The translations under genes were made by a program, and so were the position numbers. DNA of 64,000 nucleotides from a virus, in the UHGV virus genome UHGV-1384413. The stretch is one strand, 5' to 3'. Shown piece after piece: positions 40,951 to 50,497 of this stretch. The notes beneath the pieces were generated by a model. The model saw only the letters and a list, made by a program, of their open reading frames with translations. It was not told the DNA's origin and did not search any database. How positions within the stretch are numbered: position 1 is the stretch's first letter; each line of letters opens with the position of its first letter.

Positions 40951-41539
40951 GTCTGCTCTTCTCCTACCATAAACGGCCCTACCTGGCAAGTGGAATAATT
41001 GACTAGCCATCAATCCCACACACTGTATAAATATACATGGAAAATAACTATTGCATAATTTTTCATTGTGTGGTAGCAAGGCCATTTTTACCCGTTTTCT
41101 CTCCCAAAATTGCACGTAATGCCGCTATTGCACAAAATTTAACCTGATGCACATCTTCAACATCTTGTCAATAACTAAAAATCTTTATAAGTCATACACT
41201 TACACAACCATAAAGCCGTGTTCTACGTGAAAAATCGAGTATAACTATAGCCGCCAGATCTCAGAATTTACGTACGTTCACCATTCTATAGCCTGCAAAG
41301 TATTTATTCCAACCACAGAATAACGGAATAGTCAATACCTGCATAAAATAATTATTCGTGTAAACTGCATAACATAAATCAGCTCAGGTGTCAACATTTT
41401 TCGTAAGCAGTTCGAAATTGTCACGATAAGTTATTATACACAAAGAAATCTTTAGTCGTCTAATGGTTACTATACATTACTAATCTGACTGGAATCATTA
41501 GATGACTAAGAGAAAGATAAGAAATAATTAATAATGTAA

Positions 41540-41850
41540 TTGTTTTACCTGTAACAATAAGGCAACTATGCAAACGAATGGCATGGCGCGACGGAGTCGC
41601 GACATAATATAAAAGCAGTAACCATCACCCCCGTGATAGTTTTTCTGCAATCTATTACTCAGATCATAGTTGCCTTGTATTTAGTTAATCATGACATAAC
41701 AAGCAAGGCAACTATAGATCTTCTAATAGTTGCCCTGCTTTTATATTATGTCATAGAAACGCCCGAAGGGGTGACCTAGTCACCTGGCATAGCCAGCGAA
41801 AGATTATTATCTTGTTAATTGTTTTCATGCAAACGAATGTCATGGCTTAT
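41540..41850. repeat. iteron / inverted-repeat cluster (candidate origin or regulatory hub)
   Basis: 9-mer GGCAACTAT in alternating orientation near 41560, 41667, 41707, 41726; 18-bp perfect inverted repeat GACATAATATAAAAGCAG near 41601 and 41735; flanking direct repeats ATGCAAACGAATG(G/T)CATGGC near 41568 and 41826; small palindromes GCGACggaGTCGC, GGTGACctaGTCACC. Confidence 0.6.
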
Positions 41851-42596
41851 CATCTATGCGTGAACTATCCAGGCGTAAACAGTCTATGCGGGAACAATCT
41901 ATACGGGAACAGTGAGGCATGCAATAGTAACAACTGTTATTGTATCCGGTGTGTTGAGTATGCCCGGTGTGTCACTATTATGTCACATTATGTCAGACAA
42001 GTTTTTCTCCTCTTTGTCAAGTGCTGCATGAAAAATTTACAAACTGGTATGGTAGCATTTTTGCGGCCCTGTTTACATTCAGAAATGTATGTATAATCCT
42101 TGGTGTGTGGGCGTTTAGACGTCTGGACGGTCAGAAGTCCGCAGGTCAATATCTAATCTATTGGTTGCTAACTATATCCCACACAAATAGTAAGAAATAT
42201 AATTGTTATGTGCGTAAACAGTAACCCATGTTATCAATCCCTGTATGTATCGCCAGTGGTGCGCATAATGGGTATTATGTTAAATTGCCCGTAATGATAA
42301 CTATTCTCACAATGATAGGTATTCTCATTCATCCCCACAAGATAGATTGCAAATGTTGTGCCACTGTGTGAACGGCCTGGTCTATTAATTTGCCTCACTG
42401 CCTCGATATTTGAGAATTATTATAAAAATGAGAAGTATTCCCATTCCGTCCGCCTGGCAGCACTCCTGTAGGACAAGCACAAAATCGGGGCATAACTGAC
42501 CTGTTCAGATATTTCTGGCTGACTCTTCAGGTCTGTGTGGGAAAAGCCAACCTCTCCGGCGGCGGGGTAGGGGTCAATTAAAAAATTTATGCGGTG

Positions 42597-42652
42597 TATG
42601 AAACCCTCTTCAGGCAAGGTGTGTATTATGGTATGAAACCCTCTTCAGGCAA
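42597..42652. repeat. two perfect 21-bp direct repeats
   Basis: TATGAAACCCTCTTCAGGCAA twice, 35 bp apart; related CTCTTCAGG and CGGCGGGGTAGGGGT motifs recur nearby; approximate coordinates. Confidence 0.55.
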
Positions 42653-43411
42653 TGATATTTGTGGGTGTGATATTTGCTGGAAAGCCAGATATGACGGGAC
42701 TCCCGGCGGGGCAGGGGTAGTACAGACAGGGAAAATGTGGGGATGTAGTTGGGGAAATTGATCAGACAGGTAGAGTATGGAATATGTTATGAATATGTTA
42801 AATATGGAGGGTGAATATCTGTAGGATTTGTGTGTAAAATCAAAGACTTAAGTGGTGTTGTGGTATTTTCTATAAATAATTCAAGTTTAATAGGTAATAT
42901 TTGTCTCTATCCACTTTGTGTGGTAAACAGATTTAGATGAAATTGGTTTACAAGTGTATACATAATATACAAATTAAAGATACAAGAAACCCCCCTCCCC
43001 CTTCGGCTACCATTCACCTTTTCCTCTGACTGGTACTTAAACACTTATTCAGACTCTTCAGGTTATCACCCATATACTATATGGCAGTGACTGGTGTCCT
43101 CCGGCCCCTCTTTCGTCACCCGTCCGCTTCGCCAAGCTAATGCCATAGCCAAATGTTCGGTTGTTCACCCTGTTCACTCAGGTGTATCTCCATACCCCTT
43201 CAAACCGAAGAGAACAGAAAACCCGAATTACTCGGTAAAAGAAAAGAGAAGAACTTAATTTTATCAAGATAGGCAAGAATGTCAAGGGATGACTGCTCAC
43301 TAAACAAGCAAACAGTCATGTGTGGTAGGTAAGTGATTGTAGTGGTGGAAAATTTAGTTGAAAGATGTGTTATAGTGCTCCCAGCACTTTAGCCGGGCAG
43401 CTAATTGTGTG

Positions 43412-47412: not shown

Positions 47413-47808
47413 TTACTGAAATAGTGCAGATAAATTACCTTCTGGTGGGAACTTATCTGCCAGGAATGGGGTTAGAACAGTGGCCTTCTGAATATCAGGG
47501 GTCCACTCATTGTTCAGAACATCCCAGTAGTACGCAATGTTACTGTGTGGGTGCCGCATTACGAACTTTTTCCCTTCGTAGTCAGTTGAAACCTCTACAG
47601 AAGAAATAACAACAGAGTCTTCAAGGGTTTCTTCATAGAAAGATCCACCCTCAAATTTCCAACGAGATGCAAGAGCTCCTGCCTTGAACGCTGCAGATAA
47701 CGGACTGTCTGCAAGAACATACATTTCTTGCACTCTGTCACTGCGATCTTTGCTTCTTACATTGTATACAGTATCCGAGCTATACTCAACACGGTATAGA
47801 CTTACCAT
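47413..47808 (-). CDS. hypothetical protein (131 aa), paralog family C
   Basis: HPHSNIAYYWD...EWTP motif shared with 49615..50013. Confidence 0.5.
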   Translation of the reverse strand: MVSLYRVEYSSDTVYNVRSKDRSDRVQEMYVLADSPLSAAFKAGALASRWKFEGGSFYEETLEDSVVISSVEVSTDYEGKKFVMRHPHSNIAYYWDVLNNEWTPDIQKATVLTPFLADKFPPEGNLSALFQ

Positions 47809-48144: not shown

Positions 48145-48408
48145 TCACCCCACAATCATAGCTTCAAAAGGTGTCATAAACGAATAAACAGCATCATCAT
48201 CTGCTTCAGGGAATGCCCCCAAAGACTTTATGTCTGATCCCTTGACAAATACAAGGTTTTGATCAAAAGCTTCTTGGGGATCAATCCGATACATATCTCG
48301 TAGGATATTGCTTACCTCCTCATCAAGAGGTGAGTATGCTGTGCACGTTTTTCCAATCAAGCTTTGAGAATCAGGGTATCCACCTGAAGTTTTAAAATAA
48401 ACAATCAT
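48145..48408 (-). CDS. hypothetical protein (87 aa), paralog family A-like
   Basis: VFVKGSDIKSLGAF motif; GAGGTGA RBS. Confidence 0.5.
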   Translation of the reverse strand: MIVYFKTSGGYPDSQSLIGKTCTAYSPLDEEVSNILRDMYRIDPQEAFDQNLVFVKGSDIKSLGAFPEADDDAVYSFMTPFEAMIVG

Positions 48409-48499: not shown

Positions 48500-48769
48500 T
48501 TATTCCTCTACAATCTCATACACATCAGGAGTTACAATCAACTCTTCTCCGTTACCCGGTGCAACAAACACCACCAAGCCTTCAGGTGTGTGCTTTTTAG
48601 CCATCTCGATAACATCTTCTCGCAGAGCTGGCTCCATCAGATCAAAGCCTTCACCCAGGGCATCACGAACCACCTTCATATAGTCCACTGGTTGTGCTTC
48701 AACAATCATGCCTTCAACCAGTCCACAGTTTTTGTCTGCCAGCTCAGTTTTGAATAATTTAATTTTCAT
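48500..48769 (-). CDS. hypothetical protein (89 aa), paralog family B
   Basis: MKIKLFK N-terminus; C-terminal LIVTPDVYEIVEE; GAGGAG RBS. Confidence 0.5.
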   Translation of the reverse strand: MKIKLFKTELADKNCGLVEGMIVEAQPVDYMKVVRDALGEGFDLMEPALREDVIEMAKKHTPEGLVVFVAPGNGEELIVTPDVYEIVEE

Positions 48770-48906
48770 TTAGAGGTCTCCTCAATTATTTGATATTAAT
48801 AGCCGTAACCTAACACATTAACTACAACTACGATTGCAAACATAATTTCAAAGCATGCAATCTCTACATTTGGGACTAATTTCTTAATCATACCCATTGT
48901 AGCACC

Positions 48907-49224
48907 TCATTCTCCAAAGTCAATCTTTACTTTGCCTTTCCCCTTACCTTTCTTTCCACCACATTTAGCCAACTGACGTGCTGCAACATCTACCATACGG
49001 TCAGTTGCCTCGTAAGCATCACTGCCTTTAGCTTTGGCAATAACTTCTTTTCCGGAAGTGTCAAAAATGAACGCCATAACTTCCTGGTGATCATTTTCAA
49101 CTTTTACACTCACACGTGCATAGTTGGCAGAGGGGTGCAAACGCTCCAGCTTAGACATTTTGTGGGAAATGAAAGACACCATACCTTCAGTGATTTCTAC
49201 GTTGCCAGTGATTTCAATTTGCAT
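48907..49224 (-). CDS. ribosome hibernation factor homolog (HPF/RaiA, S30AE family)
   Basis: 105 aa; MQIEITGNVEITEGM...KLERL...VSVKVEN and ...ARQLAK collinear with E. coli HPF as I recall it (MQLNITGNNVEITEAL...KLEQY...VLKVEK...LARQLTK); Lys/Gly-rich C-terminal tail. Confidence 0.65.
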   Translation of the reverse strand: MQIEITGNVEITEGMVSFISHKMSKLERLHPSANYARVSVKVENDHQEVMAFIFDTSGKEVIAKAKGSDAYEATDRMVDVAARQLAKCGGKKGKGKGKVKIDFGE

Positions 49225-49306
49225 AACGTGTTCCTTTTAAAGAAGAGGGAACCAAACCCTCTTTGAAAACAATGATACTAAATCTGAAGCGTTGTGTCAA
49301 CAGTTT

Positions 49307-49614: not shown

Positions 49615-50013
49615 TCAGTCTAGCTTTTCTTCAACAACCCCATAACTTGGGGCAGAGTCAAGAGCTTTCTGGTTTAAAAGTGGCGTAGCAGAATCTGCAA
49701 ACGGTGTCCAAGTTTTTGTTCTGGCATTCCAGTAATGCTTCACTCTGGAATCTGGATGCACTATAACAAAAACTTTTTCACTTGTCAACACATTAATTTC
49801 TTCTACACCCTTGCTGATAATTTCTCCGTCATAGCCACCAGTCTGGTATCCTTCGTACCAGGTTCTTGCATATGCATAGCCAGCCTGCCAGCATGCAGCC
49901 TCCTCCGAGGTGGAGACTACGTAGAAGTCTTTCTCAAATTCTGGGATACGCCCTTGCTTTACGCTCCAAGACCCGCGAATTTTCATTGTAACTTTGAACA
50001 GTTTATTTTTCAC
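49615..50013 (-). CDS. hypothetical protein (132 aa), paralog family C
   Basis: HPDSRVKHYWN...TWTP motif shared with 47413..47808. Confidence 0.5.
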   Translation of the reverse strand: MKNKLFKVTMKIRGSWSVKQGRIPEFEKDFYVVSTSEEAACWQAGYAYARTWYEGYQTGGYDGEIISKGVEEINVLTSEKVFVIVHPDSRVKHYWNARTKTWTPFADSATPLLNQKALDSAPSYGVVEEKLD

Positions 50014-50025
50014 AACGGTTACCCC

Positions 50026-50280
50026 TCACAGCTCTACAATCTCTGCATCTGACCCTGCCCCAAAGGCATAATAGGATTCTTCCCCGAAATAATATTCCGG
50101 TGCACCAGCAGCGATCAGGTCTGATCCCAAGATAAACACCACGTTGTGGCCTACATAACTGTGATGTTGCCGCACAGGATCATCCCACGGCAACCCTTCA
50201 AAGTATACCGCAGGAACGACCTTTCCATTCAGGAAGGATTGTCCCAAGTAGACGTTAGAATCAAGAATTTTAACCTTCAT
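50026..50280 (-). CDS. hypothetical protein (84 aa), paralog family A
   Basis: MKVKILDSNVYLGQ ... SDLIAAGAPEYYF ... AEIVEL. Confidence 0.55.
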   Translation of the reverse strand: MKVKILDSNVYLGQSFLNGKVVPAVYFEGLPWDDPVRQHHSYVGHNVVFILGSDLIAAGAPEYYFGEESYYAFGAGSDAEIVEL

Positions 50281-50497
50281 TCTCGTCCTCCACTATCTCT
50301 ACATCCTCACCAAGGGCAAAGTTGTAGGTCCACTGACTGTCAAAGCAGTCCTGAGATGCACCAGCGGCAATAAGATCTGCACCTTTTATTTTTAAAAGGT
50401 CAGGATAATCTTCGTTAGGGATAGCGGTAAACACTTTCCCCACTAAGGGCTCCTGACCAATATAGAAGCTTGAATCTAAAACTTTAACTTTCATCAA
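50270..50497 (-). CDS. hypothetical protein (75 aa), paralog family A
   Basis: MMKVKVLDSSFYIGQ ... ADLIAAGASQDCF ... VEIVEDE. Confidence 0.55.
   Translation of the reverse strand: MMKVKVLDSSFYIGQEPLVGKVFTAIPNEDYPDLLKIKGADLIAAGASQDCFDSQWTYNFALGEDVEIVEDENEG

What the first reader, a model, noticed from the sequence alone, without database searches (positions are those of the whole stretch)
48907..49224. Phage-encoded ribosome hibernation factor (HPF/RaiA) homolog
The 105-aa product aligns by eye along its length with short bacterial HPF (MQIEITGNVEITEGM...KLERL...VKVEN ... ARQLAK versus E. coli HPF as I recall it), plus a Lys/Gly-rich tail. Hibernation factors are host stress proteins that stabilise inactive ribosomes. 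A phage copy in a block of small early-type genes suggests deliberate manipulation of host translation or ribosome preservation.
Basis: partly seen in the sequence, partly recalled or inferred. Interest (0 to 1): 0.7.

Follow-up and report, generated by a model that had tools for sequence, protein, structure and literature searches.

The report
Known phage copy of ribosome-hibernation factor
This rV5-like coliphage carries a real, strongly conserved copy of the bacterial ribosome "hibernation" protein HPF, but the gene was annotated in 2006 and tested in 2019 without showing ribosome binding, so only its function is still open.

Summary
The ORF exists as described: window 48907-49224, minus strand, 105 aa. 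It passes the curated cut-offs of Pfam Ribosomal_S30AE (48.2 bits against 23.7) and TIGR00741 HPF/YfiA. It aligns over residues 1-89 with E. coli HPF (E about 1e-11, 42-44% identity). Its predicted fold superposes on solved HPFs at about 1 Å, and it ends in a disordered Lys/Gly tail.

The window is a Vequintavirus (rV5-like coliphage). The gene is present in about 119 of 121 related genomes. It has its own near-consensus sigma-70 promoter, phage-like base composition and dN/dS of about 0.08.

It is not new. It is rV5 ORF144 ("sigma 54 modulation factor"). Mizuno et al. 2019 expressed it in E. coli. They did not find it in salt-washed 70S/100S ribosomes and saw no change in 100S.

What I add:
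- It is a long-diverged, lineage-specific branch and scores below the HPF and RaiA equivalog cut-offs.
- It keeps Arg83, Lys87 and Lys26 but has lost Glu51, Thr53, Lys80 and Lys89.
- The short HPF C-terminus is replaced by a 17-residue basic tail.
- No phage in the collection encodes RMF.

Most likely it is a weak, RaiA-like binder of idle ribosomes. This is untested.

The parts
48907..49224 (-). Complete coding sequence of the phage HPF/YfiA-family protein (105 aa plus stop; orthologue of rV5 ORF144 / ABI79209)
   Evidence: ORF list and sequence. Pfam PF02482 at 48.2 bits and TIGR00741 at 46.7 bits, both above their cut-offs. 99-100% identical to annotated genes in Vequintavirus records. dN/dS 0.035-0.16 within the genus.
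48961..49224 (-). [quoted passage not shown]
   Evidence: AlphaFold2 model with mean pLDDT 82.7, and 86-94 across the domain. Foldseek against PDB gives TM 0.8-0.9 and rmsd 1.0-1.4 Å to V. cholerae HPF 4hei and E. coli HPF 6h4n/2rql. 18 of 23 family-conserved columns are kept.
48910..48960 (-). C-terminal Lys/Gly-rich tail, residues 89-105 (GGKKGKGKGKVKIDFGE; 6 Lys, 2 acidic), which replaces the KHKDKLKQH end of short HPFs
   Evidence: Predicted disordered, with pLDDT below 50 for residues 90-94 and 97-105. The family alignment shows the replacement. The divergent phage clade has a different sequence with the same charge balance, KYSKSKGIDKRTAKWDY. Shorter frameshifted natural variants occur in APCEc02, Murica and P0003. 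The peptide VKIDFGE was detected by MS in PMC6375957.
49272..49300 (-). Sigma-70-type promoter TTGACA-17 nt-TATCAT (11 of 12 consensus positions), 48 nt upstream of the start codon
   Evidence: Promoter scan. It corresponds to promoter P144 annotated in the rV5 record. The -35 TTGACA is conserved in the divergent clade L002. Such sites are enriched about 16-fold in the window.
49232..49236 (-). Shine-Dalgarno-like AAGGA, 7 nt before the ATG
   Evidence: Read directly from the sequence.
49243..49263 (-). 7-bp stem-loop (AAGAGGG/CCCTCTT) at the predicted 5' end of the transcript. Probably incidental; listed for completeness.
   Evidence: Fold energy is -9.9 kcal/mol with z = -0.71 against shuffles, so it is not significant. 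It is absent from the divergent clade.

Best explanation
This is a functional, phage-adapted member of the HPF/YfiA (S30AE) family of ribosome hibernation factors. It was fixed in the genus Vequintavirus long ago and is transcribed by host RNA polymerase from its own sigma-70 promoter in a block of small early-type genes. These points are shown or strongly supported. What follows is inferred. [quoted passage not shown] Binding is probably weaker and more salt-labile than for host HPF, because part of the interface has been lost. The 17-residue flexible basic tail replaces the short HPF C-terminus. It would make the protein behave more like RaiA/YfiA than like HPF, parking ribosomes as 70S monomers and occupying or obstructing the path toward the RMF site instead of promoting RMF-dependent 100S dimers. 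The likely benefit to the phage is a pool of intact, quickly reusable ribosomes in slow-growing, starved or stressed hosts. The factor would shield the decoding centre and the 16S 3' end from host nucleases and compete with host-imposed hibernation.
For: Family membership:
- Pfam and TIGRFAM scores are above their curated cut-offs.
- E. coli and V. cholerae HPF structures are the best sequence and fold matches.

The gene is functional and ancient in the phage:
- It is present in about 119 of 121 Vequintavirus records that match the region.
- It sits in the same syntenic position in a divergent clade at 64% aa identity.
- Pairwise dN/dS is 0.035-0.16, pooled 0.08.
- GC and GC3 match the neighbouring phage genes.
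- The protein was detected by MS when expressed.

Expression: a near-consensus sigma-70 promoter lies upstream and its -35 is conserved across clades. The window is 16-fold enriched in such promoters.

Binding surface:
- 18 of 23 family-conserved columns are retained.
- Retained contacts include Arg83 (the m4C1402 contact, described as the single essential arginine), Lys87, Lys91, Lys26, Glu60 and a hydrophobic residue at position 62. The contact list comes from bioRxiv 10.1101/2025.10.07.680626 and the mapping.
- These retained positions, plus the extra Lys64 and Lys66, are also conserved between the two phage clades.

Tail logic: the RaiA C-tail overlaps the RMF site and prevents dimerisation (PMC13152769). 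The phage tail is 10 residues longer than that of HPF and keeps a +6/-2 charge in both clades despite different sequences.

Protection logic: E. coli hibernation factors block YbeY and RNase R at 16S sites (PMC7913689).

No phage record encodes an RMF homologue, so HPF-type 100S promotion would depend wholly on host RMF.
Against: - The only experiment (PMC6375957) did not detect the rV5 protein in 70S/100S purified through 500 mM NH4Cl and saw no effect on the 100S peak.
- Part of the canonical interface is changed in both phage clades: Glu51 to Met/Ser and Thr53 to Phe/Arg (the m2G966 patch), Lys80 to Val/Thr and Lys89 to Gly/Ser.
- The protein scores far below the HPF and RaiA equivalog cut-offs.
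- It forms its own PHROG of unknown function.
- The RaiA-like role of the tail is inferred from length and position only. RaiA's tail ends acidic, whereas this one is basic.
- No infection-time expression data or mutant phenotype were found.
Confidence: 0.5

Rival explanations
1. Neofunctionalised fold. The protein keeps the S30AE fold but no longer works on the ribosome decoding channel. Instead it binds another RNA or a host protein, for example by sequestering a hibernation or defence factor, or acting as a general RNA-binding chaperone through its basic tail.
For: No stable ribosome association and no 100S effect were seen in the one experiment. Four strongly conserved family positions and about five contact positions are lost. 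Identity to host HPF is only 42-44%, while enterobacterial HPFs are at least 76% identical to E. coli HPF. The branch is isolated, with a single other 50%-identity cluster among 1.84 billion representatives. There is precedent for an HPF with a second partner: S. aureus HPF binds YwlG (PMC9522360, seen).
Against: The retained and phage-conserved residues are the rRNA-contacting ones (Arg83, Lys87, Lys26, the basic beta4 strand) and not a new surface. The negative experiment used a 500 mM NH4Cl wash, which its authors name as a possible cause. From my own recollection of Maki et al. 2000, not checked here, host HPF and YfiA are found on crude ribosomes and not on high-salt-washed ones.
Confidence: 0.25
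2. Host shut-off factor. An early protein that plugs the A/P sites of host ribosomes to suppress host protein synthesis broadly.
For: The family mechanism is steric occlusion of tRNA and mRNA sites. The gene lies in an early-type gene block with a host-type promoter.
Against: E. coli carrying the gene under 1 mM arabinose from the overnight pre-culture onward still grew to OD600 = 1 with normal 70S profiles. A general ribosome plug would also block phage translation. No feature of the gene suggests selectivity for host mRNAs.
Confidence: 0.1
3. Transcriptional "sigma-54 modulation factor", as the legacy annotation in many GenBank records states.
For: The name is only inherited from Klebsiella ORF95 in the rpoN operon (note in the rV5 record).
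Against: The family is now understood as ribosome hibernation factors, with many ribosome-bound structures. There is no rpoN context in the phage. rV5-type promoters resemble sigma-70 promoters.
Confidence: 0.02
4. Decaying passenger gene picked up from a host, with no function for the phage.
For: None beyond the negative binding assay.
Against: dN/dS is about 0.08. The gene is present across the genus and in a divergent clade at the same position. Its composition matches the phage, and it has its own conserved promoter.
Confidence: 0.01

Closest known systems
E. coli short HPF (YhbH; PDB 2rql, 4v8h, 6h4n)
   Same: Best sequence and fold match, with E about 1e-11, 42-44% identity over residues 1-87 and rmsd about 1.1 Å. 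Same size of S30AE domain. Shares Lys23, Lys26, Asp69, Tyr71, Asp75, Asp79, Arg83, Gln84 and Lys87.
   Different: Scores 55 bits against the 125-bit equivalog cut-off. The C-terminal KHKDKLKQH is replaced by a 17-residue Lys/Gly tail. Glu51, Thr53, Lys80 and Lys89 are changed. It is not in an rpoN operon. No 100S-promoting effect was seen when it was expressed.
E. coli RaiA / YfiA / protein Y
   Same: Same fold and same 30S site for the family. It also has a flexible C-terminal extension beyond helix alpha2. In RaiA that tail overlaps the RMF site and blocks 100S formation.
   Different: Only 18.7 bits against the RaiA equivalog model, cut-off 158. The phage tail is shorter (17 against about 25 residues) and basic, while RaiA's tail ends acidic.
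rV5 ORF144 (ABI79209), the viral HPF of Mizuno et al. 2019 (PMC6375957)
   Same: The same gene at 99% aa identity, differing at one residue, T56N. Already listed there as a virus-encoded Ribosomal_S30AE protein, found in six closely related E. coli phages, and tested experimentally.
   Different: No biological difference. This window is another isolate of the same genus.
S30AE proteins of jumbo phages (Cronobacter GAP32, Escherichia PBECO4, Xanthomonas XaC1; phrog_8990)
   Same: Independent phage-borne members of the same fold and family.
   Different: Only 21-24% identity in structural alignment to GAP32 and PBECO4, and a different PHROG (phrog_8990 at E = 1.9e-6, against the gene's own phrog_12469 at 2.4e-70). 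XaC1 was found only through its 34% tblastn match to E. coli HPF. They lie in genomes of about 350 kb and are separate acquisitions.

Membership tests
HPF/YfiA superfamily (Pfam PF02482 Ribosomal_S30AE; TIGR00741) | Sequence match to the family profile above the curated cut-off | tested here: met
   PF02482 at 48.2 bits against 23.7, covering profile positions 1-83 of 88. TIGR00741 at 46.7 bits against 40.9.
HPF/YfiA superfamily (Pfam PF02482 Ribosomal_S30AE; TIGR00741) | [quoted passage not shown] | tested here: met
   AlphaFold2 model with pLDDT 82.7 and the element order E-H-E-E-E-H. The top 36 PDB matches are all hibernation factors, with TM up to 0.94. Caveat: the input alignment was mostly enterobacterial HPFs.
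HPF/YfiA superfamily (Pfam PF02482 Ribosomal_S30AE; TIGR00741) | Conserved rRNA-contact residues: basic track Lys80/Arg83/Lys87/Lys89/Lys91, the m2G966 patch Glu51/Thr53/residue 62, and Lys26 | tested here: inconclusive
   Arg83, Lys87, Lys91, Lys26, Glu60 and Ile62 are kept. Lys80 to Val, Lys89 to Gly, Glu51 to Met and Thr53 to Phe are changed (contact list). Val at position 80 also occurs in some bacterial members.
HPF/YfiA superfamily (Pfam PF02482 Ribosomal_S30AE; TIGR00741) | Binds the 30S decoding channel of non-translating ribosomes | not testable with these tools
   The published attempt was negative after a 500 mM NH4Cl wash of ribosomes from late-exponential cells. It was not done at low salt.
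Short HPF of gammaproteobacteria (NCBIfam NF007780 equivalog) | Equivalog-level sequence score | tested here: not met
   55 bits against a cut-off of 125. Identity to E. coli HPF is 42-44%, while enterobacterial HPFs are at least 76% identical to E. coli HPF.
Short HPF of gammaproteobacteria (NCBIfam NF007780 equivalog) | Short basic C-terminus K-H-K-D/E-K-L of about 8 residues after helix alpha2 | tested here: not met
   Replaced by CGGKKGKGKGKVKIDFGE.
Short HPF of gammaproteobacteria (NCBIfam NF007780 equivalog) | Converts RMF-induced 90S dimers into 100S | not testable with these tools
   The published ribosome profiles showed no discernible effect on 100S. No RMF homologue was found in any phage record.
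RaiA/YfiA (NCBIfam NF007654 equivalog) | Equivalog-level sequence score | tested here: not met
   18.7 bits against a cut-off of 158.
RaiA/YfiA (NCBIfam NF007654 equivalog) | Extended flexible C-terminal tail that reaches the RMF site and blocks dimerisation | tested here: inconclusive
   A 17-residue disordered tail is present, but it has a different sequence and charge. Whether it reaches the RMF site was not modelled.
Long HPF (most bacteria outside the gamma- and betaproteobacteria, e.g. Firmicutes) | C-terminal dimerisation domain after a linker | tested here: not met
   The protein is 105 aa and has no second Pfam domain.

The most novel reading that the evidence does not exclude
The protein is an anti-hibernation or counter-defence factor. 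It sits in the HPF/RaiA site and its basic tail obstructs the RMF site. In this way the phage would prevent or reverse host-imposed ribosome dimerisation and dormancy, for example the RMF induction reported during DRT2-mediated defence. It would also shield the 16S rRNA from nucleases, so infected or starved cells cannot escape the phage by shutting down their ribosomes. Mizuno et al. already raised the general idea that viral HPF competes with the cellular homologue. The tail-dependent, RaiA-like mechanism is the new part.
Probability: 0.15. Interest if true: 0.7.

Novelty: already known. Interest (0 to 1): 0.3.

Why it matters
Ribosome hibernation governs whether a starved or stressed bacterium can recover. 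It is therefore a plausible point of conflict between phage and host. A lytic coliphage genus that has kept its own diverged hibernation-factor homologue under strong purifying selection is a natural tool for asking whether phages exploit, prevent or reverse host ribosome hibernation. The existence of the gene is not news, because it has been annotated since 2006 and was published in 2019. What remains valuable is the unanswered functional question. This analysis sharpens it with concrete leads: the remodelled m2G966 patch, the retained Arg83 and Lys87, the conserved-charge basic tail, the absence of any phage RMF, and the salt caveat of the single negative assay.

Tried and rejected
1. 5'-leader stem-loop (49243-49263). 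I considered it as a regulatory or mRNA-stabilising element. It folds no better than shuffles (z = -0.71) and is absent from the divergent clade, so I rejected it as a significant feature.

2. Second "sigma 54 modulation factor" under the match in many records. I traced it to the 89-aa gene downstream (window 48500-48769), which is mislabelled in APCEc02 and in records annotated from it. It has no Pfam hit, so this is an annotation error and not a paralogue.

3. Apparent His55-to-Asp charge reversal. The HMMER pairwise alignment suggested it. The MAFFT family alignment does not reproduce it and places the extra residue in the beta3-beta4 loop, so I dropped it.

4. Word-indexed homologue search. 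It returned only five near-identical clusters. The exhaustive HMMER search was needed to show that the branch is isolated.

5. Cluster names for the nearest bacterial hits were mostly absent. The few named ones are Gammaproteobacteria, so no donor could be named.

6. The IMG/VR scan gave only two further Vequintavirus loci.

7. Rfam found no RNA family anywhere in the window. No tRNA genes are in the window.

8. RMF homologue in phages: none found.

9. Literature searches for follow-up work or gene-fitness data (CRISPRi-ART on the Vequintavirus EdH4) found nothing on this gene.

10. Polikanov 2012 could not be read because it is not held.

Full report
**1. The observation**

The window holds a 318-nt ORF at 48907..49224 on the minus strand. 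A Shine-Dalgarno-like AAGGA lies 7 nt before the ATG. The overlapping plus-strand ORFs are short and have no support.

**2. It is an HPF/YfiA-family protein**

- Pfam Ribosomal_S30AE (PF02482) matches residues 3-88 to profile positions 1-83 of 88, with E = 1.9e-12 and 48.2 bits against a gathering score of 23.7.
- TIGR00741 (HPF/YfiA family) scores 46.7 against a cut-off of 40.9.
- Among solved structures, the best sequence matches are E. coli HPF chains 2rql, 4v8h and 6h4n, aligned over residues 1-89 with E about 1e-11.
- An AlphaFold2 model has mean pLDDT 82.7, and 86-94 across the domain. [quoted passage not shown]
- Foldseek places the model on V. cholerae HPF (4hei) and E. coli HPF (6h4n, 2rql) with TM 0.8-0.9 and rmsd 1.0-1.4 Å. 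The first 36 PDB matches are all ribosome hibernation factors. The caveat is that the input alignment was dominated by enterobacterial HPFs.

**3. Which genome, and is it new?**

The region is 95-99% identical in nucleotides to more than 100 Vequintavirus (rV5-like) coliphage genomes. tblastn finds the protein at 95-100% identity in 118 phage records, all of them Vequintavirus. These include 18 "UNVERIFIED Campylobacter phage" records that carry Vequintavirus taxonomy.

In the type phage rV5 the gene is ORF144 (ABI79209), annotated "sigma 54 modulation factor", with its own sigma-70 promoter P144. Other records call it ribosome hibernation factor, RaiA, hpf, hypothetical protein or, wrongly, ATP-dependent protease La.

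Mizuno et al. 2019 (PMC6375957) list this protein among virus-encoded ribosome-associated proteins. They expressed it from pBAD24 in E. coli NM522 and purified ribosomes through a 500 mM NH4Cl sucrose cushion from cells at OD600 = 1. They found no peptides in the 70S/100S fractions, although the protein was detected in crude extract, and they saw no effect on the 100S peak. They name growth phase, true loss of binding and salt stripping as possible reasons. I found no later work on it. The finding is therefore already known. Only the function is open.

**4. What this analysis adds: evolutionary status**

- An exhaustive HMMER search of 1.84 billion representative proteins finds only one other close cluster, P0004 (65% identity, 103 aa). 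Everything else is at most 44% identical with E of 1e-7 or weaker. The one stronger-scoring row, P0006, is a 1160-aa repeat protein that matches only a 47-residue stretch, and I set it aside as spurious.
- P0004 sits at the syntenic position in a divergent Vequintavirus-like genome of about 126-137 kb.
- Identity to E. coli HPF is 42-44%, while enterobacterial HPFs are at least 76% identical to E. coli HPF.
- The protein scores far below the equivalog cut-offs of both HPF (55 against 125) and RaiA (18.7 against 158). It forms its own PHROG, phrog_12469.
- GC (0.428) and GC3 (0.387) match the neighbouring phage genes and not E. coli hpf.

It is thus an old, lineage-specific branch and not a recent host copy. 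This qualifies the "relatively recent" transfer suggested in the 2019 paper.

The gene is under strong purifying selection. Pairwise dN/dS within the genus is 0.035-0.16, about 0.08 pooled. Against the divergent clade, dN is 0.31 and synonymous sites are saturated.

**5. Expression signals**

A TTGACA-17-TATCAT promoter (11 of 12 consensus positions) lies at 49300..49272 on the coding strand. It corresponds to P144 annotated in rV5, and its -35 element is conserved in the divergent clade.

The whole window has 25 sites with at least 11 of 12 consensus positions, against 1.6 +/- 1.2 in shuffles. They are strand-sorted to match gene orientation. This fits transcription by unmodified host RNA polymerase, as the rV5 paper proposed.

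A 7-bp stem-loop lies at the predicted 5' end (49243-49263). It is not statistically notable and is not conserved.

**6. The binding surface**

I took the ribosome-contact residues of enterobacterial HPF and YfiA from recent cryo-EM work (bioRxiv 10.1101/2025.10.07.680626). I mapped them through an alignment with 25 diverse bacterial family members.

- Of 23 columns conserved in at least 70% of bacterial members, the phage keeps 18 identically and one conservatively.
- Retained contacts are Lys26, position 29 (Arg, the family's commonest residue there), Glu60, a hydrophobic residue at 62, Arg83 (which contacts m4C1402 and is described as the single essential arginine), Lys87 and Lys91.
- Changed in both phage clades are Glu51 (to Met/Ser) and Thr53 (to Phe/Arg), both in the patch that recognises m2G966. 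Lys80 (to Val/Thr) and Lys89 (to Gly/Ser) are also changed.
- New lysines at positions 64 and 66 on strand beta4 are conserved in both clades.

Overall the interface is partly kept and partly remodelled. This is compatible with weaker or altered binding, and hence with the negative high-salt assay. It does not suggest that RNA binding has been abandoned.

**7. The tail**

Short HPFs end with K-H-K-D-K-L-K-Q-H. Here helix alpha2 is followed by Gly-Gly and a 17-residue Lys/Gly tail predicted to be disordered. The divergent clade has an unrelated sequence (KYSKSKGIDKRTAKWDY) with the same balance of six basic and two acidic residues.

Natural frameshift variants at A/G runs shorten the tail to 99-101 aa but keep it basic. 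They occur in APCEc02, Murica and an independent assembly, P0003. Charge and flexibility therefore appear to be selected, and not the exact sequence.

In RaiA the flexible C-tail overlaps the RMF site and prevents 100S formation. The phage tail is 10 residues longer than that of HPF. No phage record encodes an RMF homologue. I therefore infer RaiA-like behaviour from a protein of HPF-like descent. This has not been shown.

**8. Mechanism and rivals**

My best explanation (confidence about 0.5) is an early-expressed, salt-labile binder of the decoding channel of idle host ribosomes. It would keep them as protected 70S monomers and compete with host HPF and RMF. The phage would thereby retain usable ribosomes in stressed hosts. 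The protective logic follows Prossliner et al. 2021, who showed that E. coli hibernation factors block YbeY and RNase R at 16S sites.

The rivals are:
- Neofunctionalisation away from the ribosome (0.25). It is supported by the negative assay and the lost residues.
- A general host shut-off plug (0.1). It is disfavoured because cells expressing the protein grew normally with normal 70S profiles.
- The legacy sigma-54 reading (0.02).
- A decaying passenger gene (0.01). It is excluded by the selection data.

**9. Comparison with known systems**

The protein is a member of the HPF/YfiA superfamily. It is not an orthologue-level member of the short-HPF, RaiA or long-HPF subfamilies. Other phages carry independent S30AE genes, namely the jumbo phages GAP32, PBECO4 and XaC1 in phrog_8990. 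GAP32 and PBECO4 are only 21-24% identical to this protein in structural alignment.

**10. Verdict**

The functional interpretation is plausible but untested, and the single published assay was negative under non-ideal conditions. Novelty is "already known". Interest is modest (0.3). It rests on the open functional question and on the testable tail and RMF-site hypothesis.

Noticed in passing
window 41100-43400: A stretch of about 2.3 kb has no ATG-initiated ORF of 70 aa or more on either strand. It lies exactly where the near-consensus sigma-70 promoters switch from the plus strand (7.6-40.4 kb) to the minus strand (43.3-58.5 kb). It corresponds to the "non-coding" region 104013-106618 noted in the rV5 paper. 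It holds short repeats, for example a perfect 18-nt inverted repeat at 41601-41618/41735-41752 and a 22-nt direct repeat at 42596 and 42631. No Rfam family or tRNA is found there.
   Followed up: partly
whole window: There are 25 sites matching the sigma-70 consensus at 11 or more of 12 positions, nearly all with a perfect TTGACA. Block shuffles give 1.6 +/- 1.2. The sites are strand-sorted with gene orientation.
   Followed up: partly
window 47413-47808 and 49615-50013; 50026-50280, 50270-50497 and 48145-48408: Paralogous small genes of unknown function flank the HPF gene. phrog_7379 occurs twice, and phrog_5009 occurs twice plus one weak third copy. This suggests local duplications in the small-gene block. 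The divergent clade L002 appears to lack the upstream phrog_7379 copy.
   Followed up: no
window 48500-48769 (-): This 89-aa neighbour is labelled "sigma 54 modulation factor" in APCEc02 and in records annotated from it. It has no Pfam hit and belongs to phrog_11868 of unknown function. This is an off-by-one annotation error that has propagated. Several other records label the HPF gene itself "ATP-dependent protease La".
   Followed up: yes
window 48796-48897 (-): A 33-aa hydrophobic ORF (MGMIKKLVPNVEIACFEIMFAIVVVVNVLGYGY, phrog_15151) starts 9 nt after the HPF stop codon. It is annotated in rV5 as ORF145. The 84-nt gap at that position in the divergent clade L002 appears to hold no counterpart.
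   Followed up: partly
L007 (APCEc02) 401-706; L008 (Murica) 401-700; P0003: Single-base indels in the A/G runs that encode the Lys/Gly tail give shorter alternative basic tails of 101 and 99 aa. The APCEc02-type tail recurs in an independent metagenome assembly, so it is probably a real natural variant and not a sequencing error.
   Followed up: partly
phage collection hits H30, H44, H58, H76-H79: Eighteen "UNVERIFIED Campylobacter phage" GenBank records, with host given as C. jejuni, are near-identical Vequintavirus genomes. The host label is probably unreliable.
   Followed up: no
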